Positions 5,107 through 28,915 of a stretch of DNA of 64,000 nucleotides are shown piece after piece. The stretch lies in assembly GCA_035480635.1 (NCBI GenBank), contig DATIHN010000025.1, forward strand, positions 12,384 through 76,383, in the 5' to 3' direction. Numbering within the stretch: position 1 is the stretch's first letter; the number at the start of each line of letters is the position of its first letter. The stretch comes from Candidatus Saccharimonadales bacterium. Lineage in GTDB: Bacteria; Patescibacteriota; Saccharimonadia; UBA4664; DATIHN01. The notes under the pieces were generated by a model, which was given only the letters and a program-made list of their open reading frames with translations, had not been told where the DNA came from and made no database searches. A program made the position numbers and the translations under genes.

Positions 5107-5586
5107 ATGCATCGCCACGCCTACAATGGTCGTAAATTGTCCCGCCAGCGCGATCAGCGACTGGCTTTGGTGCGTGGCCAAATTATTTCGCTAGTTCTCT
5201 ATGAGCACATTGAAACAACCTTAGCCAAAGCCAAAACAGTAGCACCGGAAATGGAGCGTCTAATCACTAAGGCCAAAAGCGGTACTTTAGCCGATCGGAG
5301 ATCCATCGAAGCCGAGATTACTAGTTCAAGTGCGGTCAAAAAACTAATGACCGATTTGGCCCCACGATTCAAGGACCGGACCGGTGGCTATACTAGAATT
5401 ATTAAAACTAGCAACCGTTTGGGCGATAATGCGCCAATGGCGGTACTGTCCTTAGTGATATCCGAACCAGCCGCTAAGCCGGATGATAAGACTGAGGCCG
5501 TAGCTGAATCGACTCCAAAAGCCAAACCAGCGGCCAAAAAGCCGGCCGTGAAGCGCTCAGCTAAAACTGCTGGAGCCAAGTCATGA
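5107..5586 (+). CDS. rplQ: 50S ribosomal protein L17 with Lys/Ala-rich C-terminal tail
   Basis: L17 core followed by a ~35-aa AKPAAKKPAVKRSAKTAGAKS tail. Confidence 0.9.
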   Translation: MHRHAYNGRKLSRQRDQRLALVRGQIISLVLYEHIETTLAKAKTVAPEMERLITKAKSGTLADRRSIEAEITSSSAVKKLMTDLAPRFKDRTGGYTRIIKTSNRLGDNAPMAVLSLVISEPAAKPDDKTEAVAESTPKAKPAAKKPAVKRSAKTAGAKS

Positions 5587-6029
5587 AGACTTACTCACCT
5601 AAAGCTAGCGAAATTAGCCGCACCTGGTACCTAGTTGATGCCAAGGACCAAGTTCTGGGCCGGTTGGCTAGCCATTTGGCTATGTTTTTGCAGGGCAAGC
5701 ATAAACCAGGGTTTGCGGCGCATTTGGATTCTGGCGATTTCGTGGTAGTTATAAACGCCAGTAAAATTAAGCTAACAGGCAATAAACTAGAAGACAAAAC
5801 TTATTATCACCACTCAGGTTACCCCGGTGGGATTAAAGAAACCAGTTTGAAGCAAAAGATGGCGCAAGATCCGAGCTGGGTTATAAAGCACGCCGTTGCT
5901 GGGATGCTGCCCAAAAACCGCCTGAGCGATGATCGGCTGAAGCGCCTGAAGGTCTATGCCTCTAGTCAGCATTTACACGCCGGCCAAACCCCGGTTCCAT
6001 TATCATTTGACACCAAGGAGTCGAACTAA
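5583..6029 (+). CDS. rplM: 50S ribosomal protein L13
   Basis: MKTYSPKASEISRTWYLVDAKDQVLGRLAS... canonical L13. Confidence 0.95.
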   Translation: MKTYSPKASEISRTWYLVDAKDQVLGRLASHLAMFLQGKHKPGFAAHLDSGDFVVVINASKIKLTGNKLEDKTYYHHSGYPGGIKETSLKQKMAQDPSWVIKHAVAGMLPKNRLSDDRLKRLKVYASSQHLHAGQTPVPLSFDTKESN

Positions 6030-6427
6030 TGCCAGAAACTGCTAAATATTATTACGCCAAAGGACGCCGCAAAGAGGCCGTGGCTACAGCTCGCTTATTC
6101 TCAGGCAAGGGCACCACAATGGTCAATGATGTGACCGTCATGGAATACTTTAATAACAAAACCCTGGTGGCCGCCCTCGATCAGCCACTGAAGGAAACTG
6201 GCAACGAAACTAAACTCTACGCTACCATCAAAGTTAGTGGCGGCGGCAAACACGGGCAGGCCGAAGCGGCCAGATTAGCCATTGCCCGGGCCTTACTAGA
6301 ACTCAATGCCGACTTGCGGCCAACCCTAAAGAAAGCTGGCCTATTAACCCGCGACCCAAGAGAAAAGGAACGCAAAAAGCCTGGTCTCAAACGGGCTCGC
6401 AAGGCTTCGCAGTTCTCAAAACGCTAG
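6029..6427 (+). CDS. rpsI: 30S ribosomal protein S9
   Basis: C-terminal ...RKKPGLKRARKASQFSKR typical S9. Confidence 0.95.
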   Translation: MPETAKYYYAKGRRKEAVATARLFSGKGTTMVNDVTVMEYFNNKTLVAALDQPLKETGNETKLYATIKVSGGGKHGQAEAARLAIARALLELNADLRPTLKKAGLLTRDPREKERKKPGLKRARKASQFSKR

Positions 6428-6476
6428 TTCAAGCTTCACTGTCGAATCAGGAACATAAGCAGTATATAATATAGGG

Positions 6477-7478
6477 GTGAGCAAACGCGGCAATCGAACA
6501 TTGCTGAGAATTTCGGTACTCTCCATTCTACTGGTGGCGGTCGGTACTTTTGGTTTCGCTCGCTTTGAGCATTACAATTATGCTCTATCTCTCTACACCA
6601 CCTTACTAGTGCTGTTAACGCATTATCCGCATGGCGATGTTGCGACCTGGCAAGGCAAAACGCTATTAATTTTTTTAATTATTGCCAGCCTCGTCATCAT
6701 TGCTTATTTGCTTAAGTGGTTTGCCGAATATATGATTGGAATAGGTGGAAATGTACGAAAGCGACATGTGAAAGCAAAAATTGATAAACTCAAAGGGCAT
6801 TATATAGTCTGCGGTCTGGGACGCGTTGGCTCCCAAGTCGCCCGCGAAATGGCTATTGAGGGCATCGCCTTCGTTGGCATAGATAAAGACCAAGAAAGAG
6901 TCGATGAAGCTCTCGAATCTGGCTATTTGGCCTTTTGCGCCGACAGTAGCGCTGAGGGGACATTGCTTGATGCTGGAATTTCAAGAGCTAAGGGGTTGGT
7001 CGCAAGCCTAGGCGAGGATTCACTAAACTTGTTCGTGACGCTCGCAGCAAAATCACTTAATGGCAAAGTTTACGTCGTAGCTAGAGCCAATCGCCAAGAA
7101 AGCGAACTTAAATTAAAACGAGCTGGAGCCGATCGAGTTGCCCTACCTTATCAAATTGGTGGTTACCACATGGCTTCCATGGTGCTCAGGCCTAATGTGG
7201 TTGATTATCTGGATGTCATCAACACCAACGGCAGCAATAAAGACTTACAGGTTGAAGAGATGATAGTCGGCGATAAATCTGAACTGGCCGGCCATCGCTT
7301 GGCTGAGCATAAATTTTTGGTCGAAGGCTCTAATGGTGCGACGGTTATTGCGATTAACGGCTCCGATGGCTCAAGCATTGTTCGGCCATCGGGTAGCGAA
7401 GTAATTTACCCTGGGGATCGCTTAATTCTGCTGGGAGCAAAGAAAGATCTGACCGAGGCTTCGGCCCTGATTCGCTAA
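6477..7478 (+). CDS. membrane protein with 2 N-terminal TM helices plus RCK/TrkA-N and TrkA-C domains (K+ transport regulator/channel-like, no GYG filter)
   Basis: GTG start 6 nt after TATAAT; HYIVCGLGRVGSQVA Rossmann (TrkA-N) motif; no selectivity filter seen. Confidence 0.6.
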   Translation: MSKRGNRTLLRISVLSILLVAVGTFGFARFEHYNYALSLYTTLLVLLTHYPHGDVATWQGKTLLIFLIIASLVIIAYLLKWFAEYMIGIGGNVRKRHVKAKIDKLKGHYIVCGLGRVGSQVAREMAIEGIAFVGIDKDQERVDEALESGYLAFCADSSAEGTLLDAGISRAKGLVASLGEDSLNLFVTLAAKSLNGKVYVVARANRQESELKLKRAGADRVALPYQIGGYHMASMVLRPNVVDYLDVINTNGSNKDLQVEEMIVGDKSELAGHRLAEHKFLVEGSNGATVIAINGSDGSSIVRPSGSEVIYPGDRLILLGAKKDLTEASALIR

Positions 7479-11930: not shown

Positions 11931-12007
11931 TGGCAGGGGTGGCAGGATTCGAACCCGCGGCCTTCGGTTTTGGAGACCGACGCTCTAGCCAACTGAGCTA
12001 CACCCCT
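11931..12007 (-). tRNA. tRNA-Trp (anticodon CCA)
   Basis: reverse complement AGGGGTGTAGCTCAGTTGGCTAGAGCGTCGGTCTCCAAAACCGAAGGCCGCGGGTTCGAATCCTGCCACCCCTGCCA folds as cloverleaf, anticodon loop CTCCAAA. Confidence 0.9.
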
Positions 12008-12051
12008 CTGTGGGCTAGTGATTAGCTTAAGCCCAATTGTATCACTAGCTC

Positions 12052-12213
12052 TTACTTGGACTCTTTGAACTCTACGACCTTTTGGAGCTTCTTGGAATAC
12101 TTGTTTAGCACCAATCGATCCGGAGAATTCTTCGGATTCTTTGAGGTCGTATATACGGTTGTGGGGTCCTCATCGCTTCTTAGCTGGATGAATGGACGAT
12201 TTCGTTTTGGCAT
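12052..12213 (-). CDS. rpmG: 50S ribosomal protein L33
   Basis: 53 aa MPKRNRPFIQLRSDEDPTTVYTTSKNPKNSPDRLVLNKYSKKLQKVVEFKESK matches L33 consensus; GGAGAAAG SD; 3' part of spurious 165-aa ORF. Confidence 0.85.
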   Translation of the reverse strand: MPKRNRPFIQLRSDEDPTTVYTTSKNPKNSPDRLVLNKYSKKLQKVVEFKESK

Positions 12214-12341
12214 ATTACTTTCTCCTGTTGAATTTCTTACCGCGACACAAACCAAGGAGCTGTTTGTGGTGCGGAGAGCGAGGCTTTGCGGCGTAAGCTG
12301 GAACCAGGCAGGGCTGGTGTAAGCTGAAGCCCAAAACGAGC

Positions 12342-12416
<75 letters not shown>

Positions 12417-12417
12417 C

Positions 12418-12504
12418 TGGTGCCGGGTGAGAGATTCGAACTCCCGAAGGCATAAAGCCAGCTGATTTACAGTCAGCCCCCGTTGGCCGCTTGGGTAACC
12501 CGGC
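12418..12504 (-). tRNA. tRNA-Tyr (anticodon GTA), long variable arm
   Basis: rc GCCGGGTTACCCAAGCGG...GCTGACTGTAAATCAGC...GGGAGTTCGAATCTCTCACCCGGCACCA. Confidence 0.85.
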
Positions 12505-12519
12505 ATGTGATGTGTAAAC

Positions 12520-12595
12520 TGGAGCCGACGAGAGGAATCGAACCCCCAACCTACGGTTTACAAAACCGTTGCTCTACCAATTGAGCTACGTCGGC
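12520..12595 (-). tRNA. tRNA-Thr (anticodon TGT)
   Basis: rc GCCGACGTAGCTCAATTGGTAGAGCAACGGTTTTGTAAACCGTAGGTTGGGGGTTCGATTCCTCTCGTCGGCTCCA. Confidence 0.85.
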
Positions 12596-21508: not shown

Positions 21509-21937
21509 ATGGCAACCAAAGTAATTAAAGCCAAAATCAAATTCCGAGTTCCGGCGGGCAAGGCCACACCGGCACCGCCAGTTGGTTCTTCGATGGGCCA
21601 GCACGGCTTAAACATGATGGATTTCATCAATCCATTTAATGAAGCCACCAAGGAGCTAGGCGATGTCATGATCCCAGTTGAGATGGTAGTCTATGAGGAT
21701 CGAACTTTTAGCTTTAAGACTAAGACCCCGGCCACCTCTGGTCTTATTCGAGCCGCTGCCGGCGTCGAAAAGGGCTCTGGTGTGCCCAATAAAACGAAAG
21801 TCGCAACGCTTAGTGCCGCTCAAGTTGAAAGCATTGCTCAAGCTAAGCTACCAGATTTGAATGCCAACGATATTGAAGCCGCCAAGAAGATTGTGGCCGG
21901 TACTGCCCGCAGTATGGGCATCGAGGTTGAGAGCTAA
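21509..21937 (+). CDS. rplK: 50S ribosomal protein L11
   Basis: canonical L11 sequence. Confidence 0.95.
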
Positions 21938-21996
21938 ATTCAATTAATATTGTGGGAGTCCGCCGTAAGCGACGTTAGCACCACGAGGAGAACTAT

Positions 21997-22944
21997 ATGG
22001 CCAAGAAAGCCACTGAAGCTGATATTGATTCCAAAAAGACTGATGACGAATCTGCAGGTTCAAAAGAAGAAGTAGAAGCCAAGCCGGTTGCCAAAAAAAC
22101 GCCGGCCAAGAAAGCTGGCCCCAAATCGGCCAAGTCGGTTCGTGAGGCTGAAGCTGAAACTGAGCGCAAAGAGAAAGCTCAGGATAAGGCTGATGAGCCA
22201 AAACCCAAGGTAGCGCCAAAAGCTAACCCGATGAAGGCACATGGTAAAAAGTATCGTGAGGCCGCTAAGCTGATTGATGCGGAACAAGCCTATGATTTGG
22301 CTGAAGCCATCGCACTGGCCCAAAAGACCTCGACTGCCAAATTTGATGCTAGCGTTGAGCTCCACATTAACCTTGGCGTTGACCCCAAGCAGGCCGATCA
22401 AATGGTTCGAGCCACCGTGGTTCTGCCGGCTGGAACCGGCAAAACCCAGCGGGTGGCGGTGATTGCGCCTACAGAAAAACAGGCTGAAGCCAAAAAGGCT
22501 GGGGCCGATTTAGTTGGGGAAGATGACTTAATTGCCTTAATTGAAAAAGGCCAAATCGACTTCGACGTTTTGGTCGCTACCCCACAGGTCATGACCAAAA
22601 TCGGCAAACTAGCCAAGGTTCTTGGCCCCAAAGGTCTGATGCCCAACCCCAAGAGCGGCACTGTCACTAACAATGTGGCTGAAGCTGTTAGCCAATCAAA
22701 GGCCGGTCGGGTGGAATTTAGAATCGATAAGCAAGCCATCATTCACACGGCCGTCGGTAAAGTTAGCTTTAAGCCTGCTGATTTGGAGACCAACATCCTG
22801 ACCCTGATCAACGCACTCATGGATGCCAAACCGGCCGCCGCCAAGGGTACGTTCGTTAAGCGCATGACCCTAACTACCACCATGGGGCCGGGCATTCATT
22901 TGAATCATACTCAAGCTCTTGCCGCCGCCAACCAAGTTAAGTAA
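21997..22944 (+). CDS. rplA: 50S ribosomal protein L1 with ~78-aa Lys/Glu/Ala-rich N-terminal extension
   Basis: strong GAGGAG SD before ATG 21997; L1 core begins at [14 protein letters not shown] (22231) where no SD is visible. Confidence 0.85.
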
Positions 22945-22988
22945 TCGAACTTGCCTAGATAGGGGATAGGTTTGCTATAATCAAAGCG

Positions 22989-23594
22989 ATGGCTAACAGT
23001 GTTAGTACCAAAAGCAATCGTGGAGTTTTTGTACCGGGGCGAAATTCAGACGACCGGTTCATTCCTAACCTCAAGCGTCTTGATGAAGTTGTGCGGGCCT
23101 TCAAAGTTGTCGGTCTAAAGGTTGTTTTGACACAAGGGGTCTATGATTTATTACACGAAGGTCATGCTCGGTACTTGGAGCTAGCCAAATCCTATGGTGA
23201 TATTTTGATTGTCGGTATCGATTCGGACGAGTTGACTAGGCAACGCAAAGGCTCTAATAGGCCTATAGTACCGGAGCGTGAACGCATTGAAATGCTTAGC
23301 CACTTGCGGCACGTTGACGTCATTGCCCTGCGCAAGAGCGAACAGGGAATTGGTGACCTCATTCGTCTCGTCAAACCAGATGTGCTAGTAACATCATCCA
23401 GCACCAAGGACTTTACGGCCCAAATGATCAAAGACTACGGCAATAGTTGTGGTAAGATTATTACCCTTAAACCTCAATCAACCACTTCGACCACCGCCCG
23501 AATTCGAGATCTAACCATCGAGGGCGCCGAGCAGCTAGCAACTGAGATTAATACACTGACTAAAGACTTTATCGACAAAATTAGACGGGCCTAA
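22989..23594 (+). CDS. cytidylyltransferase-like nucleotidyltransferase (RfaE domain II / TagD family, HxGH motif)
   Basis: GVYDLLHEGHARYLELAKSYGDILIVGIDSDE...RKGSNRPIVPERER matches the G.FD.LH.GH...LIV..NSD...KG..RP pattern of ADP-heptose synthase domain II / glycerol-3-P cytidylyltransferase. Confidence 0.6.
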   Translation: MANSVSTKSNRGVFVPGRNSDDRFIPNLKRLDEVVRAFKVVGLKVVLTQGVYDLLHEGHARYLELAKSYGDILIVGIDSDELTRQRKGSNRPIVPERERIEMLSHLRHVDVIALRKSEQGIGDLIRLVKPDVLVTSSSTKDFTAQMIKDYGNSCGKIITLKPQSTTSTTARIRDLTIEGAEQLATEINTLTKDFIDKIRRA

Positions 23595-24442
23595 TGGCTC
23601 GCATCGTTGTCTCCTACATTCCCGCACTGCACCAAGGCTACATCAACTTTTTAGTCAAATACCCAGGTGATTTGCTAGTTTTAGGCCAGGAATTGGTGCA
23701 TGAAAGCCCACGCCTAGATCGTGATATACGAGCGATGGATCCTAAAGGTGTTGCCACAATGATCCAAAGCCTGGAGTTAATGAAAAGTGTACAGGTCTTA
23801 GACGATCCTAAATCTCTTAAAGCATTAATAGACAGCGACTTCATCCTGCCCGATGAAGATGTCAACCGTCGTTTTGCGGAGCGCTACCTGAGTAAAGCTA
23901 AGGTCGCATTAGTACCCGTGTTTCTGCGCTGGGATATGCCGGCTAGTTTATCGAAACAGGTTGTTGATCCTAAACGTAAAGTAAGCGTAGAAAAACTCGA
24001 CCGAGACTTAATCGCGCTGGCTCAACAAGAAGTTCATAAAAGTCCAGATTGGTGGCGGCAGGTTGGGTCTGCCCTTGTAATTAAAAGCGTGCCACCGCTG
24101 GTTGCCCACAATCGACCGCCGTTGGCTGGTGATTACACCTTTGGCGCCTTCGGCGACCCACGCAGTAATTTTGATGCCGGCCAAAGTTTTGAACTATCGA
24201 AAATCTTACATTCCGAGACAGCCGTCATCGCTGAAGCGGCCAAGCGCGGGCTAGCCACCAAGGGGGCCTCTATGTACGTTACTACATTTCCTTGCCCGGT
24301 TTGCGCCAAACTTATCGCTGCTGCTGGAATTAGTAAAGTTTACTACCAAACTGGTTATTCCCTGCTTGATGCCGAGGATGTTCTGGCCGCCGCCAGAGTT
24401 GAATTAATTCAGGTGGAAACAAAAACCCCCCGTCCGCACTAG
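23594..24442 (+). CDS. two-domain protein: N-terminal unknown (degenerate nucleotidyltransferase-like?) domain fused to C-terminal dCMP/cytidine deaminase zinc-binding domain
   Basis: C-terminal HSE...TFPCPVCAKLI = H(A)E / PCxxC deaminase signature; ATG overlaps upstream TAA (coupled). Confidence 0.6.
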   Translation: MARIVVSYIPALHQGYINFLVKYPGDLLVLGQELVHESPRLDRDIRAMDPKGVATMIQSLELMKSVQVLDDPKSLKALIDSDFILPDEDVNRRFAERYLSKAKVALVPVFLRWDMPASLSKQVVDPKRKVSVEKLDRDLIALAQQEVHKSPDWWRQVGSALVIKSVPPLVAHNRPPLAGDYTFGAFGDPRSNFDAGQSFELSKILHSETAVIAEAAKRGLATKGASMYVTTFPCPVCAKLIAAAGISKVYYQTGYSLLDAEDVLAAARVELIQVETKTPRPH

Positions 24443-24990
24443 GCAGACGGAGGGCTGGAACGCTGGGCTGAGCCCATGTAGAACTTGACGGGCTCGCACT
24501 TTGGGTCGCTGACCACCAGCTGGATGTGCAGGTGCTGGATGGTGGCACCGGTAAAGCGGGGGTGGCCGTTTCTAACCCCTAAAACGTAGTAAGATAGGCC
24601 ACATTCGGTCACGGCCTGATCCAAGATGGTCCAGAAGTTGCGTTGAGCGGGCACTGAGAGCTCGTGCATGGCATTGGCATGCTGCCTGGGGACCAACATG
24701 ACGTGCTGCAAAGCTCCGGCGTATGGGTACTCGTTCACCAGTAGGGCCCAGCAGTCCGATTTAGACAAAATCTTCTTCTTGAATGAAACCCCCCCTGGGT
24801 ATTCCAGTAAAACCTCGGGTTCAGGTGAGTCCGTCCAGCTTTCAGGACAGAAGATGCAAATGCCAGCCTTTTCTAGTTCAACCATTTCGTCGTGCTGAGC
24901 CTGAGAACGAGCATTTGGCAAGTAGTAGAGCGGTCCGCCAACGTCGTTGTGGGCTATCACGGCTTCCTCCGCATGGTCACGAATGTGCAA
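24439..24990 (-). CDS. HIT-like protein of the GalT/Ap4A-phosphorylase branch (HxHxQ motif, CxxC)
   Basis: HLHIQLV (His-x-His-x-Gln) and CIFC zinc motif; start uncertain (alternative MVELEKAG at 24888). Confidence 0.45.
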   Translation of the reverse strand: MHIRDHAEEAVIAHNDVGGPLYYLPNARSQAQHDEMVELEKAGICIFCPESWTDSPEPEVLLEYPGGVSFKKKILSKSDCWALLVNEYPYAGALQHVMLVPRQHANAMHELSVPAQRNFWTILDQAVTECGLSYYVLGVRNGHPRFTGATIQHLHIQLVVSDPKCEPVKFYMGSAQRSSPPSA

Positions 24991-25448
24991 GTGTATTTGT
25001 TGTCGTCATCAGCTGGGTGGGTTTGGAGGTTTTCCAGTTTCCAATCTTCAACGCTGTAGAGTGGAAAGTAGGTATCGCCAGCAAACTCTTTGTGGACAAG
25101 CGTTAGGTGCAAGGCGCTAGCCATTGGCATCGCCAAGTGGTAGATCTCAGCGCCACCAATCACAAAGCAGCTGTATGGGCTAGAAGCCATTTCAGCTAAG
25201 GTGTCCAAGCTGGCTACTTCGGCTCCATCGATGGCGCCACTGCGGGTCAGCACGTAATTGCGGCGCCCTGGCAGTGGCCGGAACCGTTCCGGCAATGACT
25301 CCCAGGTTTTTCGACCCATCACGACTGGATGACCAGTCGTCAGCTCACGAAAGTGCTGCATGTCAGCCGGAATCTGGCCCTGCCAAGGCAACTTTCCGCG
25401 ATTGCCGATGACATTGTTACGGCCGATGGCCGCCACGATCTCGATCAT
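24957..25448 (-). CDS. folA: dihydrofolate reductase
   Basis: MIEIVAAIGRNNVIGNRGKLPW...VMGRKTWESLP canonical DHFR. Confidence 0.9.
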   Translation of the reverse strand: MIEIVAAIGRNNVIGNRGKLPWQGQIPADMQHFRELTTGHPVVMGRKTWESLPERFRPLPGRRNYVLTRSGAIDGAEVASLDTLAEMASSPYSCFVIGGAEIYHLAMPMASALHLTLVHKEFAGDTYFPLYSVEDWKLENLQTHPADDDNKYTCTFVTMRRKP

Positions 25449-26353
25449 GTCGACACCGGGATGTCGTTCATAGCTGGATGCGGATCGTAATCGCTGAGCT
25501 CAAAGTGCTCTCGCCGGAAATCCTTTAGGCAAGTTGCCTTTAGCCCAGCATCACCTAGTCGAACTGTCGGCAATCGACGCGGTTCACGCACCAGCAACTC
25601 CTCGACATTGTCGAATTGGTCGGCGTAAATGTGCGCGTTCCAAATACTGTGGTAGAACACACCGGCCTCGAAGCCAGTCAGGTGCTCCAGCATTAAAACT
25701 AGAGCGGCATATTGAGCCATGTTGTGAGGACCACCGACCGGAGTGTCGCATGACCTCTGCCGCATGCCAAGGTGGATGCGACCCTTCAGGATATGGATAA
25801 AGACGTCGCCGTGGCAGGGCGCAATGGTCGTCTTTTGGTAGCCATGCACCAGCCGGGAGTTTTCCTTCGGCATCCAAATGGCAATCCGATGGATACGATC
25901 ATGCGGAAGCCTGATGATTTGATCAACGATGTTCTCGATCTGATCGAACAATGAGCCATCGAGGGTCGGGAAGGCAGTCATGGCCGGGCCATAACTAGCT
26001 GGTCCGATAACGCCCGGCTCAAAGCCGAATAGGGCACACTTGTCTGGATCGGTCCAAGCATGCCACCAGTCGGCGCCGAAATCCGCCAATTCATCGACCG
26101 TCTGGGCACCGTTCATGAAGCCACAGAGCTCACCAATGCCTTTATTCCAACTCTTTTTTGGACCCAGGCTGCGATCGGGAATGACCGGAAAGCCGTTGCG
26201 CAGATCAAAGCGCATATGCAGATCAAACAACGTTCTGGCCGGTACACCCTGCCGAGTTTGCTCGGCATCTTCGCCTTCGCGCATGATGCGCTCAAGCAAA
26301 TTCCGGTACTGACTATCGGGCAGGCGATCCTCGTACGGGAGATAGTCGGGCAT
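25445..26353 (-). CDS. thyA: thymidylate synthase ThyA-family (302 aa, longer than canonical)
   Basis: APCH catalytic Cys motif, QRSCD, HNMAQY (Asn retained, uracil-type), DYDPHP; start overlaps folA. Confidence 0.8.
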   Translation of the reverse strand: MPDYLPYEDRLPDSQYRNLLERIMREGEDAEQTRQGVPARTLFDLHMRFDLRNGFPVIPDRSLGPKKSWNKGIGELCGFMNGAQTVDELADFGADWWHAWTDPDKCALFGFEPGVIGPASYGPAMTAFPTLDGSLFDQIENIVDQIIRLPHDRIHRIAIWMPKENSRLVHGYQKTTIAPCHGDVFIHILKGRIHLGMRQRSCDTPVGGPHNMAQYAALVLMLEHLTGFEAGVFYHSIWNAHIYADQFDNVEELLVREPRRLPTVRLGDAGLKATCLKDFRREHFELSDYDPHPAMNDIPVST

Positions 26354-26546
26354 GTTATCCTCTTGGTCGTAGGTACGCTTTAAGAGGACGTCCCCCTAAA
26401 AAGCTGACCTCATCCTAGCAAACTATCTGATCATTTGTAAATTTGTTCAAAACCATGAATCAAGACTAATGATTGCTCTAAATAATATTTGATGTTATTC
26501 TTACCCCGAAACGAGGGTGGTTTCGATCCTACCAGGGGGTGATCCC

Positions 26547-27182
26547 ATGCCCGGACGCTATATTGTCTTAGAAGGCGGTGAGGGCGTCGGGAAGACGACC
26601 CAAGCCCGAGTTTTGCGTCAGCGGCTGGCAACGTTTGGAGTCAAAGCCATTGGTTTCATGGAGCCAGGGCAGACGCCAATTGGATACCAAGTCAGAGACT
26701 TGTTGTTAAACCGTTCTACCGAAGTTAATGACAAGGCCGAGGTACTGTTGTTTAACGCCGCCAGGGCTCAAGGCATATCGATTGTTCGGCAGAAGTTGAT
26801 GGAAAATGTTTGGGTAATAGCGGATCGCTGTTACCTTTCAACTCTGGCTATGCAGGGTTATGGCCGGGGCTTGGACATTGCGGAGCTCGAGACCATCTGT
26901 CGATACGCCACTGATGGCGTCGAACCCGACTTAATCATGGTGCTGAGCTGCTCGCTAGAAGTTTTGCTTGAGCGCAGAGGCAGCCGTGGAGTCAAAGATC
27001 ACTTTGAGCGTTTATCAAATGATTTCCATAGTCGGGTCAACGCTGGTTACGCTCAACTGGCCCGCGATTACTCTTTGCCGGTGATCGATGCCGATAGCTC
27101 GGTTGAGAGCGTACACGAGTGCATTTGGCAAAACGTCCGCCCGATAGCGGAAAAGTTTCTAGTGCGACCCGAGGGGGTCTAA
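26547..27182 (+). CDS. tmk: thymidylate kinase
   Basis: MPGRYIVLEGGEGVGKTTQ P-loop, DRC/DRY lid; SD GGGGGTG before ATG 26547. Confidence 0.85.
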   Translation: MPGRYIVLEGGEGVGKTTQARVLRQRLATFGVKAIGFMEPGQTPIGYQVRDLLLNRSTEVNDKAEVLLFNAARAQGISIVRQKLMENVWVIADRCYLSTLAMQGYGRGLDIAELETICRYATDGVEPDLIMVLSCSLEVLLERRGSRGVKDHFERLSNDFHSRVNAGYAQLARDYSLPVIDADSSVESVHECIWQNVRPIAEKFLVRPEGV

Positions 27183-27305
27183 ATCCTCTCGGGTCGTTGA
27201 CATTTAACCCCATATTCGCTATTATTCATTGGATCACCGAAGACCGTAGCCGTCGTAAGACTTAATCTGCTACCGAGGCGAAAACAATTATTGTTTTTAA
27301 CTTGT

Positions 27306-27329
27306 CTTTGGCTGATGCCAAAGTTTTTT
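27306..27329 (+). terminator. hairpin + U-tract immediately upstream of rplJ (tmk terminator and/or L10-leader attenuator)
   Basis: CTTTGGC-TGAT-GCCAAAG followed by TTTTTT, 15 nt before rplJ GTG. Confidence 0.4.
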
Positions 27330-27344
27330 AATTGGGAGAACCTA

Positions 27345-27878
27345 GTGGCTATAACCAGAGCCGAAAAAGAAGCGGTTGTTGAGCAACTCTCTAGTGATCT
27401 GAGCCGCTTTAAGCTGGCCGTCTTAACTGACTACCGAGGACTTAGTGTGGCCGAAATCAAAGAGCTGCGCCAGGCCCTGAGTGCAGAGGGCATTAGCTAC
27501 CGTGTGACCAAGAACACTCTGCTGCGCTTGGCTGCGGCCGCTAGCCCCACCCTCAAGAGCATTGATCCGGCTAGTTTCAGTGGCCCGATGGCGCTAGCCA
27601 TTGGTTTTGATGATGAGGTGGCACCAGCTCGAGTTATCTTCCAGTTCGCCAAAACGCATGAGGCGCTAGAAATTGTGGGAGCGCTAACACCCGATGGTCG
27701 CTTGCTCAGTGCCGCTGAGGTCAAGGCTCTAGCTCAAATGCCCAGCCGCGATCAGTTACTGGGCCAAGTGGTTGGCACCATTGCCGCCCCACTCAGTGGT
27801 TTAGTGGGAGTACTTGGGGCAAATGTTAGATCAATCGTTAATGTATTAAATGCAATTAGTAATTTAGAGGAGAAATAA
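27345..27878 (+). CDS. rplJ: 50S ribosomal protein L10
   Basis: [19 protein letters not shown]... L10; GGGAGA SD then GTG 27345 (ORF-track start 27291 is upstream junk). Confidence 0.9.
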
Positions 27879-27879
27879 G

Positions 27880-28329
27880 ATGGCTGATGAAGCTAAAGCA
27901 GAAGCAAAAGAACCTGAAGTAAAAGCAGACAAGAAAACCGAGGTGCCGAAGAAGTTTAAGGATCTAGTTGAAACTATCGAAAAACTCAGCGTTTTAGAAC
28001 TGAGCGAACTAGTTCATACCCTGGAAGACCACTTTGGCGTTAGCGCTGCGGCTCCGGCTGCGGCCATGGCTGCTCCGGCGGCTGCTGGCGCGGATGCCGG
28101 TGAGGCCGCTGAAGAAAAGACGGCCTTTACGATTGTACTTAGTGCCGCTGGTGATCAAAAGATCAACGTCATTAAGGCCGTGCGCGAAATCACCGGTCTG
28201 GGCCTAGCCGAGAGCAAAGCCTTGGTTGATGGCGCACCTAAACCGATCAAAGAAAACGTGCCTAAGGCTGAGGCCGATGAGGCCAAAACCACTCTAGAAG
28301 CCGCTGGCGCTAGCGTCGAGCTGCAATAA
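27880..28329 (+). CDS. rplL: 50S ribosomal protein L7/L12 with ~25-aa Lys/Glu-rich N-terminal extension
   Basis: C-terminal domain ...[55 protein letters not shown] canonical L12 CTD. Confidence 0.9.
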
Positions 28330-28402: not shown

Positions 28403-28915
28403 GTGGCAGAACTTAGCGATAAGCAGCTAAAAACTCTAAAGAAACTAATCGAAACCGCCGAAACCAATCTGGCTGGCGCCAAGGAACTATTGGCTAGTCT
28501 AGTTGGTGATGAAAAAACGGCGGTTTCGCCAATTGTGCCTAGCGAATCAACCGCTGGTAAGGTCATTGAGGGCACTTTTGATGGTCAAAACATGCATGGT
28601 CCGGACGAGAAAGTTTATCCGGTGCCCGCCAATTACGCCTCTAAATCCAAGTTAGTCCAAGGCGACATTTTGAAATTAACTATTTCCGATGATGGCTCGT
28701 TTATTTATAAGCAAATCGGCCCAATCGAGCGGAAAAAAATTATAGGTACTCTGCAACTAAAGGACGGCCAATACACCGTCGAAGCCCAAGGCAAGCCCTA
28801 CCGTGTGCTGTTTGCTAGCGTCAGCTACTTCCGCGCCCAACCTGGCGATCAAGTCACAATCGTAGTACCCCAAGAGGGCGAAGCCGACTGGGCCGCCATC
28901 GAAGCCGCGTTGTAA
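28403..28915 (+). CDS. hypothetical protein
   Basis: 170 aa ORF, GTG start; no recognisable motif. Confidence 0.45.
   Translation: MAELSDKQLKTLKKLIETAETNLAGAKELLASLVGDEKTAVSPIVPSESTAGKVIEGTFDGQNMHGPDEKVYPVPANYASKSKLVQGDILKLTISDDGSFIYKQIGPIERKKIIGTLQLKDGQYTVEAQGKPYRVLFASVSYFRAQPGDQVTIVVPQEGEADWAAIEAAL

What the first reader, a model, noticed from the sequence alone, without database searches (positions are those of the whole stretch)
22989..27182. Six-gene thymidylate/nucleotide cluster inserted inside the rplK-rplA | rplJ-rplL operon, with an unusual nucleotidyltransferase-dCMP-deaminase fusion
Seen in the sequence: rplKA (21509-22944) and rplJL (27345-28329) are almost universally contiguous. 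Here they are separated by 4.3 kb carrying six genes:
- An RfaE-domain-II/TagD-like cytidylyltransferase (LLHEGH).
- A coupled gene whose C-terminus is a dCMP deaminase (HSE...PCPVC) and whose ~150-aa N-terminus carries a degenerate HxGH-like segment (PALHQGY).
- On the opposite strand, a HIT-like GalT/Ap4A-phosphorylase-type protein (HLHIQ), DHFR, and a 302-aa ThyA-family enzyme (APCH and Asn-type pyrimidine pocket, ~40 aa longer than canonical).
- Then tmk.

Established knowledge: dCMP deaminase, ThyA, DHFR and Tmk make up the complete dUMP-to-dTDP route.

Inference:
- The two nucleotidyltransferase-like genes and the HIT-like gene are not part of canonical dTMP synthesis.
- Their tight linkage raises the possibility of a nucleotide/nucleotide-sugar modification activity, or of a nucleotide-salvage adaptation.
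- The latter would fit an organism with little de novo nucleotide synthesis.
- rpoB/rpoC are also absent after rplL.
Basis: partly seen in the sequence, partly recalled or inferred. Interest (0 to 1): 0.65.

Follow-up and report, generated by a model that had tools for sequence, protein, structure and literature searches.

The report
Patescibacterial thymidylate cluster with extra enzymes
The six genes between two ribosomal-protein operons are not a one-off insertion but a gene block kept throughout the Patescibacteria (CPR bacteria), in which ordinary thymidylate-making enzymes always travel with three uncharacterised nucleotide-handling proteins whose job nobody has worked out.

Summary
In detail: all six ORFs exist at the stated coordinates, and Pfam/NCBIfam confirm DHFR, ThyA, Tmk, a dCMP-deaminase domain, an HxGH nucleotidyltransferase (P1) and a HIT-superfamily protein. 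The organism is a Candidatus Saccharimonadales MAG.

The N-terminal 112-135 residues of the deaminase protein (P2) have no Pfam hit. They model confidently (pLDDT 94) as a cytidylyltransferase fold carrying HxGY in place of HxGH.

The arrangement is not special to this genome. In 83 non-redundant loci from many CPR classes, P1 lies directly upstream of P2 in 83/83, mostly with a 1-4 nt overlap. The convergent HIT and ThyA genes follow in all but one locus with enough sequence.

About half of the well-flanked loci sit next to nusG-rplK(-rplA). Nine loci lie between rplKA and rplJL, as here.

rplJL has its own promoter-like site and L10 leader, so the block lies between two operons, not inside one.

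A 158-kb viral contig carries the P1-P2 pair alone.

The core route is dCMP to dUMP to dTMP to dTDP. The roles of P1, the N-domain and HIT are inferred only; I favour a P1-P2 complex handling cytidine nucleotides.

The CPR ThyA usually lacks two of the four phosphate-binding arginines. No paper describing the module was found.

The parts
21509..22944 (+). rplK (21509-21937) and rplA (21997-22944; 315 aa with a K/A/E-rich N-terminal extension): the upstream ribosomal unit, secE-nusG-rplKA
   Evidence: ORFs; Pfam Ribosomal_L11 and L1 on the identical contig
22973..22981 (+). Extended -10 promoter-like element TGcTATAAT, ending 7 nt before the P1 ATG with no Shine-Dalgarno sequence. This suggests a leaderless P1-P2 transcript.
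   Evidence: Sequence. In 24 of 74 orthologous loci a strict -10 hexamer ends 5-10 nt before the presumed ATG, against 2.2 +/- 1.4 in shuffles; only 5 are SD-like.
22989..23594 (+). P1: canonical HxGH nucleotidyltransferase (LLHEGH; TTSTTARIR), RfaE-domain-II-like, 60-80% identical across CPR
   Evidence: It lies directly upstream of P2 in 83/83 loci.
23594..24001 (+). P2 N-terminal domain plus linker. The folded domain is roughly residues 1-112 (last strand at 103-107); residues 113-120 are a low-confidence linker, and the span to residue 136 was what was modelled. It is a divergent cytidylyltransferase-fold domain with HxGY. Invariant residues: Y8 P10 H13 G15 Y16 R40 R43 D44 R46 F110 L111 R112 W113 R128.
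   Evidence: No Pfam hit. AF2 pLDDT 94. Foldseek hits: 5x3d at 1.8e-4, 1coz, 3glv; viral cytidylyltransferases. Invariant residues. Almost always fused to the deaminase.
23999..24442 (+). P2 C-terminal domain, in the dCMP-deaminase clade: H206-S-E208, P233-C-P-V-C237, and a conserved GDPRSNFD loop
   Evidence: The top 15 structural neighbours are all dCMP deaminases.
24424..24456 (.). Hairpin of 14 pairs (9 G-C) spanning the overlapping convergent stop codons of P2 and the HIT gene. It was scored as terminator-like on the minus strand; I infer it may end both units.
24439..24960 (-). HIT-superfamily protein (173 aa; CxxC, H86, H94, H143-x-H145), last gene of the thyA-folA-HIT unit. Its start overlaps the folA stop by 4 nt.
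   Evidence: Found downstream of P2 in all but one adequate locus.
24957..25448 (-). folA, dihydrofolate reductase
   Evidence: PF00186 at 5.3e-50
25445..26353 (-). thyA, CPR-type thymidylate synthase. All catalytic residues are kept. R127' is Ile here (Thr in 71 of 78 relatives). R21 is kept here but is Ile or Gln in 67 of 78.
26412..26441 (-). Promoter-like site upstream of thyA
   Evidence: 9/12 match with TG; weak evidence
26517..27182 (+). tmk, dTMP kinase (the gene callers start it at 26547)
   Evidence: TIGR00041 at 148.4 bits, above the 83.25 cutoff
27197..27339 (+). rplJL promoter-like site (27197-27225) and L10 leader RNA (27219-27339)
27345..28329 (+). rplJ and rplL, the downstream ribosomal unit. 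No rpoBC follows.

Best explanation
This is the Patescibacteria (CPR) version of the thymidylate-synthesis gene neighbourhood. It sits in the gap between the rplKA and rplJL transcription units.

It has two convergent, translationally coupled units plus one further gene:
- P1-P2, probably leaderless.
- thyA-folA-HIT.
- tmk.

Shown or strongly supported:
- P2's C-domain belongs to the dCMP-deaminase clade.
- ThyA is a thymidylate synthase, DHFR recycles its dihydrofolate, and Tmk makes dTDP. The backbone is therefore dCMP to dUMP to dTMP to dTDP.
- P2's N-domain has a cytidylyltransferase fold with a conserved, arginine-rich site and HxGY in place of HxGH.
- P1-P2 is an inseparable pair across the group and also in one viral contig.

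Inferred, and this is what I commit to:
- P1 (catalytically intact) and the paralogous-fold N-domain of P2 (a degenerate partner) associate the way TagD-family enzymes dimerise. This would give a nucleotidyltransferase-deaminase complex that binds a cytidine nucleotide triphosphate.
- P1 breaks the alpha-beta bond of (d)CTP by nucleotidyl transfer. This delivers, or gates, the (d)CMP moiety for deamination. The classical GYNG allosteric site and zinc-bearing cap of dCMP deaminases are missing, and this arrangement would replace them.
- The HIT enzyme in the thyA operon releases the free nucleoside monophosphate from an NMP-X intermediate or by-product.

The acceptor X, the nucleotide specificity of P1, and whether the N-domain is catalytic or only a sensor are all unknown.
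For: Gene identities.

Fold of the N-domain. hhalign places LHQGY on IHEGH, though only weakly.

Strict conservation of H13, G15, Y16, R40, R43, R46, R112 and R128.

P1-P2 coupling:
- Adjacent in 83/83 loci, typically with a -4 or -1 nt overlap.
- P1 is 60-80% identical across CPR.
- The pair alone, with all motifs and overlapping stop/start codons, occurs on a 158-kb viral contig beside an anti-Thoeris gene.

HIT and ThyA:
- They follow P2 in all but one adequate locus (L018).
- The window has 4-nt overlaps linking thyA-folA-HIT.

Other dTMP genes cluster around the module: DHFR in 54 loci plus a divergent form in 12, dUTPase 24, SHMT 31, FolD 8, Tmk 7, and a dCTP deaminase (DCD) beside the module in L001.

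Differences in the deaminase domain:
- GYNG is replaced by (A/G)HN(R)P.
- The Cys/His zinc insert that defines the clade (PMC3239186) is replaced by a Cys-free GDPRSNFD loop, which is low-confidence in the monomer model.

Extra nucleotidyltransferase-like plus HIT pair with a 4-nt overlap in L038, and a second HIT family near the module in about 14 loci.
Against: - No biochemical data exist for any of P1, the N-domain or HIT.
- P1's best family match is adenylyl-type RfaE domain II (107 bits) rather than cytidylyl-type TagD (40 bits), so (d)CTP use is not established.
- The viral contig has P1-P2 without HIT or ThyA within 6 kb, so HIT may not belong to the P1-P2 function.
- An NTP to NMP-X to NMP route is more roundabout than a MazG- or Nudix-type pyrophosphatase.
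- dUTPase (24 loci) and a dCTP deaminase (beside the module in L001) also occur nearby, so canonical dUMP routes exist.
- The inter-domain geometry of P2 is not confidently predicted (pTM 0.57), and a P1-P2 complex could not be modelled.
- Sequence homology between P1 and the N-domain is weak (hhalign E 0.025).
- The cultured saccharibacterium Southlakia lacks the module and tolerates loss of tmk, dcd, folA and thyA (PMC10633639).
Confidence: 0.45

Rival explanations
1. Regulatory domain only. The N-domain of P2 is a nucleotide sensor derived from a CTP-binding fold, with dCTP activating and dTTP inhibiting. It replaces the lost classical allosteric site. P1 and HIT are unrelated housekeeping enzymes (for example envelope-precursor activation and general nucleotide clean-up) that stay adjacent through ancient synteny and little genome rearrangement.
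For: - GYNG motif and zinc cap lost.
- The N-domain lacks the second His of HxGH.
- The top structural neighbours bind CTP or CMP.
- Automatic annotations call P1 rfaE domain II.
- Ribosomal-protein neighbourhoods are slow to rearrange.
Against: - P1-P2 adjacency is 83/83 with overlapping stop and start codons across class-level divergence, and the pair also occurs in a high-GC viral contig. That is hard to explain without a joint function.
- P1 is below the HldE, RfaE-II and TagD equivalog cutoffs.
- No heptose or teichoic-acid genes accompany it in the loci examined.
- The module moves and inverts as a unit.
Confidence: 0.3
2. Triphosphate-level route. P2 is a CDA-fold dCTP deaminase, like the chlorovirus bifunctional enzyme, vertebrate CDADC1 or the anti-phage dCTP deaminases. 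Its N-domain holds the triphosphate, the dUTP made is cleaved by the neighbouring dUTPase, and P1 and HIT are accessory.
For: - The deaminase domain scores better against the anti-phage dCTP deaminase models (NF041025 at 2e-18; PADLOC dCTPase at 1e-18) than against ComEB (1e-12).
- 7fh4 and 9hfq are among the hits.
- dUTPase lies next to the module in 24 loci.
- Cytidylyltransferase folds bind NTPs.
Against: - The matches to dCTP-deaminase models cover only the shared C-terminal half of the fold.
- The closest solved structures are dCMP deaminases.
- A trimeric Dcd is also present beside the module in L001.
- No dUTPase is found in this 64-kb window.
Confidence: 0.15
3. Nucleotide or DNA hypermodification cluster. 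The ThyA-like enzyme is a pyrimidine hydroxymethylase or another C5-transferase, and P1 and HIT build or attach a nucleotide-linked group.
For: - The CPR ThyA family has an altered phosphate pocket (R21 and R127' usually lost).
- It is tightly linked to a nucleotidyltransferase and a HIT protein.
- Phage hypermodification pathways use similar enzyme types (my own knowledge).
Against: - ThyA passes the TIGR03284 thymidylate-synthase cutoff (135.8 against 108.35).
- The Asn177 equivalent and every catalytic residue are invariant.
- DHFR, needed only if dihydrofolate is produced, lies beside it in 66 of 83 loci.
- SHMT and FolD co-cluster.
- No glycosyl- or aminoacyl-transferases recur in the neighbourhood.
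Confidence: 0.05
4. Anti-phage dCTP-depleting defence system, or a recently acquired island inserted into the ribosomal cluster of this genome.
For: - PADLOC dCTPase and NCBIfam antiphage_deaminase hits on P2.
- Slightly higher GC at 24-26 kb (0.54-0.55).
Against: - Only the deaminase half matches. There is no kinase-like domain, and P1, HIT and ThyA have no PADLOC hits.
- The module is present in at least 445 species genomes in a housekeeping context, and at the same slot in related lineages.
- The GC values are within the window's range.
Confidence: 0.03

Closest known systems
T4-type / ComEB dCMP deaminases (T4 Cd 1vq2, S. mutans 2hvv/2hvw, cyanophage S-TIM5 4p9c, human DCTD 2w4l)
   Same: - P2 residues 136-275 align over the whole fold (profile E 1.7e-18), with H(A/S)E and PCxxC.
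- These are the top 15 structural neighbours.
- The role is the same: supplying dUMP to thymidylate synthase.
   Different: - Extra N-terminal cytidylyltransferase-fold domain of about 112 aa.
- GYNG allosteric motif replaced by (A/G)HN(R)P.
- The zinc-binding Cys/His insert is replaced by a Cys-free GDPRSNFD loop.
- Far below the ComEB equivalog cutoff (48 against 219 bits).
- Obligatorily paired with P1.
TagD / CCT / Fom1-CyTase / RfaE-domain-II (HldC) HxGH nucleotidyltransferases
   Same: - P1 has HxGH, the RKGPxRP loop and the TTSTxxR motif over the full domain.
- The P2 N-domain shares the fold.
   Different: - P1 reaches no equivalog cutoff (rfaE_dom_II 107 against 181.5; TagD 40.5 against 165.4).
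- P1 is never next to envelope-sugar genes in these loci.
- The N-domain has HxGY, no Pfam hit, and only TM about 0.56 to the solved enzymes.
Ethanolamine-phosphate cytidylyltransferase (ECT, 3elb): two tandem cytidylyltransferase domains forming a pseudo-dimer (architecture recalled from my own knowledge)
   Same: - Two cytidylyltransferase-fold modules are encoded back to back.
- ECT is the second-best solved match to P1.
   Different: - Here the two modules are on separate, translationally coupled polypeptides.
- The second module is degenerate and fused to a deaminase.
- Heterodimerisation is inferred, not shown.
Anti-phage dCTP deaminase (NF041025 / PADLOC dCTPase): nucleotide-binding N-domain plus CDA-fold deaminase
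   Same: - Two-part logic of a nucleotide-binding domain fused to a cytosine-nucleotide deaminase.
- Best NCBIfam and PADLOC scores for P2's C-terminal half.
   Different: - The N-domain is a different fold (kinase-like there).
- Score is 66 bits against a 400-bit cutoff.
- The context here is housekeeping, universally conserved and linked to thyA.
HIT superfamily: Hint, Fhit, Ap4A phosphorylase Rv2613c (3ano), GalT
   Same: - CxxC, His and the HxH nucleophile motif.
- Profile hits at 1.9e-8 to 2.5e-5.
- JGI labels three relatives 'ATP adenylyltransferase'.
   Different: - The third position of HxHxH/Q is not conserved.
- The window protein is below the Pfam gathering score (17.8 against 21.5).
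- The branch, and so hydrolase versus phosphorylase chemistry, is unresolved.
- It has a fixed position downstream of thyA/folA.
Canonical secE-nusG-rplKA / rplJL-rpoBC cluster and the L10 leader
   Same: - Order secE-nusG-rplK-rplA ... rplJ-rplL.
- rplJL has its own promoter-like site and an L10 leader.
   Different: - 4.4 kb of dTMP genes separates the two units.
- rpoBC does not follow rplL.
- Both features are shared with related Saccharimonadia.

Membership tests
dCMP deaminase clade (CDA superfamily) | HxE and PCxxC zinc/catalytic motifs, and a Pfam PF00383 score above the gathering threshold | tested here: met
   H206-S-E208 and P233-C-P-V-C237; 49.4 bits against 25
dCMP deaminase clade (CDA superfamily) | Closest solved sequences and structures are dCMP deaminases rather than tRNA, guanine or RibD deaminases | tested here: met
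   Profile E 1.7e-18 to 1e-12 for dCMP deaminases against 2.7e-9 for TadA. Foldseek ranks 1-15 are all dCMP deaminases.
dCMP deaminase clade (CDA superfamily) | [quoted passage not shown] | tested here: not met
   The insert is GDPRSNFDAGQSFELSK, with no Cys. After HSE comes TA (family consensus A). The NxxP feature at the end of strand 2 is met (N173-R-P-P).
dCMP deaminase clade (CDA superfamily) | GYNG allosteric (dCTP/dTTP) motif; its role is recalled from the S. mutans and T4 literature | tested here: not met
   Aligned to gYNG/gWNG of 2hvv, 1vq2 and 4p9c, the family has (A/G)HN(R)P.
dCMP deaminase clade (CDA superfamily) | ComEB equivalog score (TIGR02571) | tested here: not met
   48 bits against a cutoff of 219.45
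dCMP deaminase clade (CDA superfamily) | Deamination of dCMP to dUMP | not testable with these tools
   Needs an enzyme assay
HxGH (HIGH) nucleotidyltransferases, PF01467 - P1 | HxGH motif, the ISTT-type motif, and a Pfam score above the threshold | tested here: met
   H55-E-G-H58; TTSTTARIR; 64.2 bits against 21
RfaE domain II / HldC heptose-1-P adenylyltransferase - P1 | Equivalog-level score (TIGR02199), and a heptose-pathway gene context | tested here: not met
   107.2 bits against 181.5. The neighbours are dTMP genes, with no gmhA, gmhB or hldA in the loci examined.
TagD glycerol-3-P cytidylyltransferase - P1 | Equivalog-level score (TIGR01518) | tested here: not met
   40.5 bits against 165.4
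HxGH nucleotidyltransferases - P2 N-domain | Rossmann-like cytidylyltransferase fold | tested here: met
   pLDDT 94. Foldseek hits 5x3d at E 1.8e-4, 1coz at 1.4e-3 and 3glv at 3.3e-3, with TM 0.52-0.56.
HxGH nucleotidyltransferases - P2 N-domain | Both histidines of HxGH, and a Pfam PF01467 match | tested here: not met
   H13-x-G15-Y16 is at least 90% conserved. No Pfam hit.
HIT superfamily | Histidine-triad core HxHx(H/Q), with the upstream CxxC and His | tested here: met
   C35, C38, H86, H94, H143 and H145 are invariant in 11 sequences. Family profile against solved HIT proteins: 1.9e-8.
HIT superfamily | Pfam PF01230 gathering score for the window protein | tested here: not met
   17.8 bits against 21.5. 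However, 10 of 11 orthologues match HIT, with a best E of 1.2e-8.
GalT / Ap4A-phosphorylase branch of HIT | Conserved HxHxQ, and phosphorolytic or transferase chemistry | tested here: inconclusive
   The window protein has HLHIQ, but the position varies in the family (Q/H/S/N/L). Hint, Fhit, Ap4A phosphorylase and GalT all match within 3-4 orders of magnitude.
Thymidylate synthase ThyA | Equivalog score; catalytic Cys; the Asn that selects uracil; and the Glu, Trp, Tyr and His-Tyr network | tested here: met
   TIGR03284 at 135.8 bits against 108.35; PF00303 at 198.9.
Thymidylate synthase ThyA | Four arginines binding the dUMP phosphate (R21, R126', R127', R166) | tested here: not met
   The window protein has R, R, I, R. 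In the family, R21 is Ile in 52, Gln in 15 and Arg in 6 of 78; R127' is Thr in 71 of 78; R126 and R166 are kept.
DHFR (FolA) and dTMP kinase (Tmk) | Family scores above the curated thresholds | tested here: met
   PF00186 at 169.7 against 25; TIGR00041 at 148.4 against 83.25

The most novel reading that the evidence does not exclude
CPR bacteria, and at least one phage, may process pyrimidine deoxynucleotides as phosphate-tagged intermediates.
- P1, paired with the P2 N-domain, would attach the (d)CMP moiety of (d)CTP to an acceptor, giving NMP-X.
- The fused deaminase and the CPR-type thymidylate synthase would work on the tagged nucleotide. The TS has usually lost two of its four phosphate-binding arginines, so its phosphate pocket is less basic.
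- The HIT enzyme in the thyA operon would then remove the tag.

This would be an unrecognised variant of the dTMP pathway in a group that makes up a large share of bacterial diversity.
Probability: 0.1. Interest if true: 0.85.

Novelty: new variant of a known kind. Interest (0 to 1): 0.6.

Why it matters
Thymidylate synthesis is among the best-understood pathways in biology, and Patescibacteria are known for stripped-down nucleotide metabolism.

Three proteins accompany thyA, folA and a dCMP-deaminase domain in almost every locus examined:
- a highly conserved HxGH nucleotidyltransferase (P1);
- a degenerate copy of its fold fused to the dCMP deaminase;
- a HIT protein.

This points to an unrecognised step, or an unrecognised form of control, in making dTMP in this group.

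The module is currently annotated only as 'rfaE domain II', 'dCMP deaminase' and 'hypothetical/HIT'. Metabolic reconstructions therefore miss it, or mis-assign P1 to LPS or heptose synthesis in organisms that have no LPS.

The question is directly testable with four small soluble proteins.

The finding also corrects the impression that the ribosomal rplKAJL cluster is broken here by a recent insertion. The slot is ancestral and conserved, and rplJL keeps its own leader.

Tried and rejected
- **Locus scan with A1.** The 96-sequence alignment A1 was too diverse to seed a locus scan. The closer alignment A3 was used instead, which biases the 80 loci toward relatives at 38% identity or more.
- **HIT structure.** The last structure job went to full-length P2 instead. 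That model did not fix the inter-domain geometry (pTM 0.57).
- **P1-P2 complex.** A model of the complex is not possible with these tools.
- **Homology of P1 and the N-domain.** hhalign gave only E 0.025, so common ancestry rests on fold and motif register, not on sequence statistics.
- **HIT word-index search.** It found only 6 relatives. Orthologues had to be taken from the loci.
- **Defence-system reading.** Rejected, because only the deaminase half hits PADLOC.
- **Hydroxymethylase reading.** Rejected on residues and DHFR linkage.
- **Recent-island reading.** Rejected on synteny.
- **HIT as a dUTPase substitute.** Rejected, because a real dUTPase sits next to the module in 24 loci.
- **Phage homologues.** Phage homologues of P1 are distant and lie in sugar clusters, so they are uninformative. 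tblastn of the N-domain against deposited phages found nothing.
- **Literature.** Six searches on this question and a reading of the deaminase-fold survey found no description of the fusion or the module.
- **Tn-seq evidence.** The Southlakia Tn-seq tables show that organism lacks the module, so they give no essentiality data for it.

Full report
**What is in the window**

- P1, 22989-23594 (+): a CTP_transf_like protein (PF01467, 1.8e-17). Its best NCBIfam match is RfaE domain II at 6e-31, but at 107 bits it is well under the 181.5-bit equivalog cutoff. TagD reaches only 40.5 of 165.4 bits. The nearest solved sequences are HldC (5x9q), ECT (3elb), 3glv and TagD.
- P2, 23594-24442 (+): dCMP_cyt_deam_1 on residues 136-252 only. 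Residues 1-135 match nothing in Pfam or NCBIfam.
- DHFR (5e-50), ThyA (1e-58; TIGR03284 135.8 > 108.35) and Tmk (TIGR00041 148.4 > 83.25) are unambiguous.
- The small minus-strand protein gives only a sub-threshold HIT hit on its own (0.0057).

The window protein P2 is identical to a protein of a Candidatus Saccharimonadales MAG. The same gene order was assembled in four other samples. No ORF longer than 742 aa exists in the 64 kb, so rpoB and rpoC are absent.

**The two unknown pieces**

I aligned the first 136 residues of P2 with 95 diverse relatives and modelled them. The model has mean pLDDT 94 and pTM 0.83.

Foldseek against the PDB puts three cytidylyltransferase-family structures on top: the Fom1 CyTase domain 5x3d (E 1.8e-4), TagD 1coz, and the RfaE-like 3glv. 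TM-scores are 0.52-0.56. The next hits are FAD synthetase, pantothenate synthetase and PPAT, all from the same HIGH-nucleotidyltransferase superfamily. The viral structure library also returns cytidylyltransferase-like domains first, though weakly.

The family keeps H13-x-G15-Y16 where these enzymes have HxGH. It also keeps an invariant set of arginines (R40, R43, R46, R112, R128) and the FLRWD motif.

A profile-profile comparison with the P1 family is weak (E 0.025). It does align LHQGY onto IHEGH and GDLLVLG onto GDILIVG.

This domain almost never occurs alone: of 381 clusters found with it, the listed ones are nearly all 270-300 aa fusion proteins or fragments.

The C-domain aligns over its whole length with dCMP deaminases (profile E 1.7e-18 to S-TIM5 and 1.5e-17 to S. 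mutans). In the full-length model its 15 best structural neighbours are all dCMP deaminases. It differs from them in three ways:
- The GYNG segment is (A/G)HN(R)P.
- The zinc-binding insert that the deaminase-fold survey lists as a clade feature (PMC3239186) is replaced by a Cys-free, strongly conserved GDPRSNFD loop.
- That loop is the only low-confidence part of the domain in the monomer model.

For the HIT-like protein, I aligned eleven orthologues. They share C35, C38, H86, H94, H143 and H145. Their profile hits solved Hint-type proteins at 1.9e-8, Fhit at 3e-6, Ap4A phosphorylase at 2.5e-5 and GalT at about 1e-4. Ten of the eleven match Pfam HIT. It is therefore a HIT-superfamily protein. 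The Gln in HLHIQ is not conserved, so the branch cannot be assigned.

**The arrangement is lineage-wide**

Contexts of five homologues already showed the same block in other Saccharimonadia and in Parcubacteria.

A scan of one genome per species found 445 genomes encoding a full-length P2 relative. The best 80 come from many CPR classes, including Saccharimonadia, Paceibacteria/Parcubacteria, Microgenomates, Moranbacteria, Uhrbacteria, Peregrinibacteria and Sungbacteria.

I annotated all loci with profiles built from the window's proteins. In 83 non-redundant loci:
- P1 is directly upstream of P2 in 83/83. The usual spacing is -4 or -1 nt.
- The HIT gene and then ThyA follow on the opposite strand in every locus with enough sequence except L018.
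- Other genes join variably: DHFR (54 loci, plus a divergent form in 12), SHMT (31), dUTPase (24), FolD (8), Tmk (7), a P-loop kinase (10), and a dCTP deaminase (DCD) beside the module in L001.

Of the 41 loci with good flanks, 23 have the module next to rplK/rplA: 18 co-directional and 5 inverted. Nine loci, apparently all Saccharimonadia, have it between rplKA and rplJL as in the window.

The block therefore moves and flips as a unit, and its position here is inherited.

**Transcription units**

Five signals define the units:
- An L10 leader (RF00557, 64.9 bits, gathering score 44) at 27219-27339, preceded by TTGACA-17-TATTAT at 27197-27225, sits just before rplJ.
- P1 is preceded by TGcTATAAT ending 7 nt before its ATG, with no Shine-Dalgarno sequence. 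A -10 hexamer at that distance recurs in 24 of 74 orthologous loci, against about 2 expected. This suggests a leaderless P1-P2 transcript.
- thyA, folA and the HIT gene overlap each other by 4 nt.
- The stop codons of P2 and the HIT gene overlap inside a 14-bp hairpin at 24424-24456.
- A weak promoter-like site lies upstream of thyA.

So the six genes sit between two ribosomal operons, not inside one.

**Clues to function**

1. P1 is the most conserved member, at 60-80% identity across CPR, against 50-58% for P2 among its best-matching relatives and 28-54% for HIT. It keeps every catalytic motif.

2. A 158-kb IMG/VR viral contig (the stretch held has 62% GC) carries P1-P2 alone, with all motifs and overlapping stop and start codons. 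It lies beside a Tad3 anti-Thoeris gene and an Rv2179c-like exonuclease, with no HIT or ThyA within 6 kb. P1-P2 is thus a self-sufficient unit. HIT is tied to thyA rather than to P1-P2.

3. The CPR ThyA keeps the catalytic residues (E58, W80, Y94, R126, C146, H147, Q165, R166, S167, D169, N177, H207, Y209) essentially unchanged. It usually lacks two of the four phosphate-binding arginines. R21 is Ile in 52 of 78, Gln in 15 and Arg in only 6, the window's protein among those 6. R127' is Thr in 71 of 78 and Ile in the window (consistent with the 6auj alignment). From my recollection of the TS mutagenesis literature, these two are the more dispensable arginines. The enzyme is therefore probably an active TS with a less basic phosphate pocket.

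4. Nucleotidyltransferase plus HIT pairs recur. L038 has an extra overlapping pair, and a second HIT family (HxHxQ) lies near the module in about 14 loci.

5. dUTPase (in 24 loci) and a trimeric Dcd (beside the module in L001) also occur nearby, so HIT is not simply replacing dUTPase.

6. The cultured oral saccharibacterium Southlakia has tmk-dcd-folA-thyA, all scored non-essential in Tn-seq, with a canonical-looking ThyA and no P1-P2 module (PMC10633639 supplementary tables). The module can therefore be replaced by the Dcd route.

**Interpretation**

The secure part is a dCMP to dUMP to dTMP to dTDP route with folate recycling.

For the accessory proteins I commit to the following. P1 and the paralogous-fold N-domain of P2 form a heteromer, as TagD-type enzymes dimerise. 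The heteromer binds a cytidine nucleotide triphosphate and either supplies or gates the deaminase, replacing the lost classical allosteric apparatus. HIT releases NMP from an NMP-X species. This is inference from fold, motif conservation, translational coupling and synteny. No step has been shown.

The main rivals are:
- a purely regulatory N-domain, with P1 and HIT unrelated (0.3);
- a dCTP-level deaminase feeding dUTPase (0.15);
- with little support, a hypermodification pathway, a defence system or a recent island.

**Novelty**

Six searches of the paper library on this question and the deaminase-fold survey gave no description of the fusion or of the four-gene module. Public annotations call the parts 'rfaE domain II', 'dCMP deaminase' or 'deaminase', 'hypothetical protein' or 'ATP adenylyltransferase'.

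The pathway and every fold are known. What is new is the architecture, the obligatory pairing and the altered thymidylate synthase. I rate it a new variant of a known kind.

Noticed in passing
window 27219-27339 (+), with 27197-27225: Ribosomal protein L10 leader RNA (RF00557, 64.9 bits against a gathering score of 44) directly upstream of rplJ, preceded by a near-consensus TTGACA-17-TATTAT site. The leader ends at 27339, which fits a GTG start for rplJ at 27345.
   Followed up: yes
window 22973-22991; 74 orthologous loci: P1 appears to be leaderless. TGcTATAAT ends 7 nt before the ATG, with no Shine-Dalgarno sequence. A strict -10 hexamer ends 5-10 nt before the presumed start in 24 of 74 related loci, against 2.2 +/- 1.4 in shuffles; an SD-like motif occurs in only 5 of 74.
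   Followed up: partly
window 21997-22250 (N-terminus of rplA): Ribosomal protein L1 is 315 aa, with an N-terminal extension of about 85 aa rich in Lys, Ala and Glu. Relatives in L008 and L010 are 340-349 aa. In many Parcubacteria-type loci no L1 was detected after L11, which fits the reported absence of L1 in that group (my recollection).
   Followed up: no
window 28403-28915 (+): A conserved 170-aa ORF immediately after rplL, in the place where rpoB would normally follow. It recurs in 7 related loci and has no Pfam match. It is followed by a GT2 glycosyltransferase, dnaX and dnaB.
   Followed up: partly
L091 (IMGVR_UViG_3300037483_001116, 158 kb), 5462-6822: A viral contig (the 12.8 kb held has 62% GC) carries the P1-P2 pair alone, with HxGH, HxGY, FLRWD and GDPRNDF all kept. 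P2 probably starts at a CTG overlapping P1's TGA. It lies next to a Tad3 anti-Thoeris gene (PF25185, 2.5e-27), an Rv2179c-like exonuclease, two GT2 genes and a C-methyltransferase.
   Followed up: partly
L038 10386-11662; L022, L023, L044, L051, L053, L062, L068, L073, L076, L078, L082, L083, L086, L089: A second HIT paralogue family (170-360 aa, motif HxHxQ, 'NPFPYP') recurs beside the module. L038 has an additional nucleotidyltransferase-like gene overlapping a HIT gene by 4 nt.
   Followed up: partly
L041, L048, L050, L065, L067, L079, L083, L088, L090: MAG records titled 'uncultured Gammaproteobacteria', 'Pseudomonadales' or 'Bdellovibrionales' carry the CPR-type module. In several of them it lies next to a nusG-rplK cluster that matches the window's genes. 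Their taxonomic labels look doubtful.
   Followed up: no
window 24424-24456: A 14-pair (9 G-C) hairpin covers the 4-nt overlap of the convergent P2 and HIT stop codons. The P2 and HIT stops overlap by 4 nt in 16 of 72 related loci, and by 17 nt in 3 more.
   Followed up: partly
Southlakia epibionticum genome (PMC10633639, Tables S1/S2): This cultured saccharibacterium has tmk-dcd-folA-thyA (SEML1_0409-0412), all scored non-essential. It has no P1-P2 module; its only cytidylyltransferase-family gene is a 144-aa one in a glycosyltransferase cluster.
   Followed up: partly
window 11931-12595 (-): Cluster of four tRNA genes (Trp, Thr-GGT, Tyr, Thr-TGT) on the minus strand.
   Followed up: no
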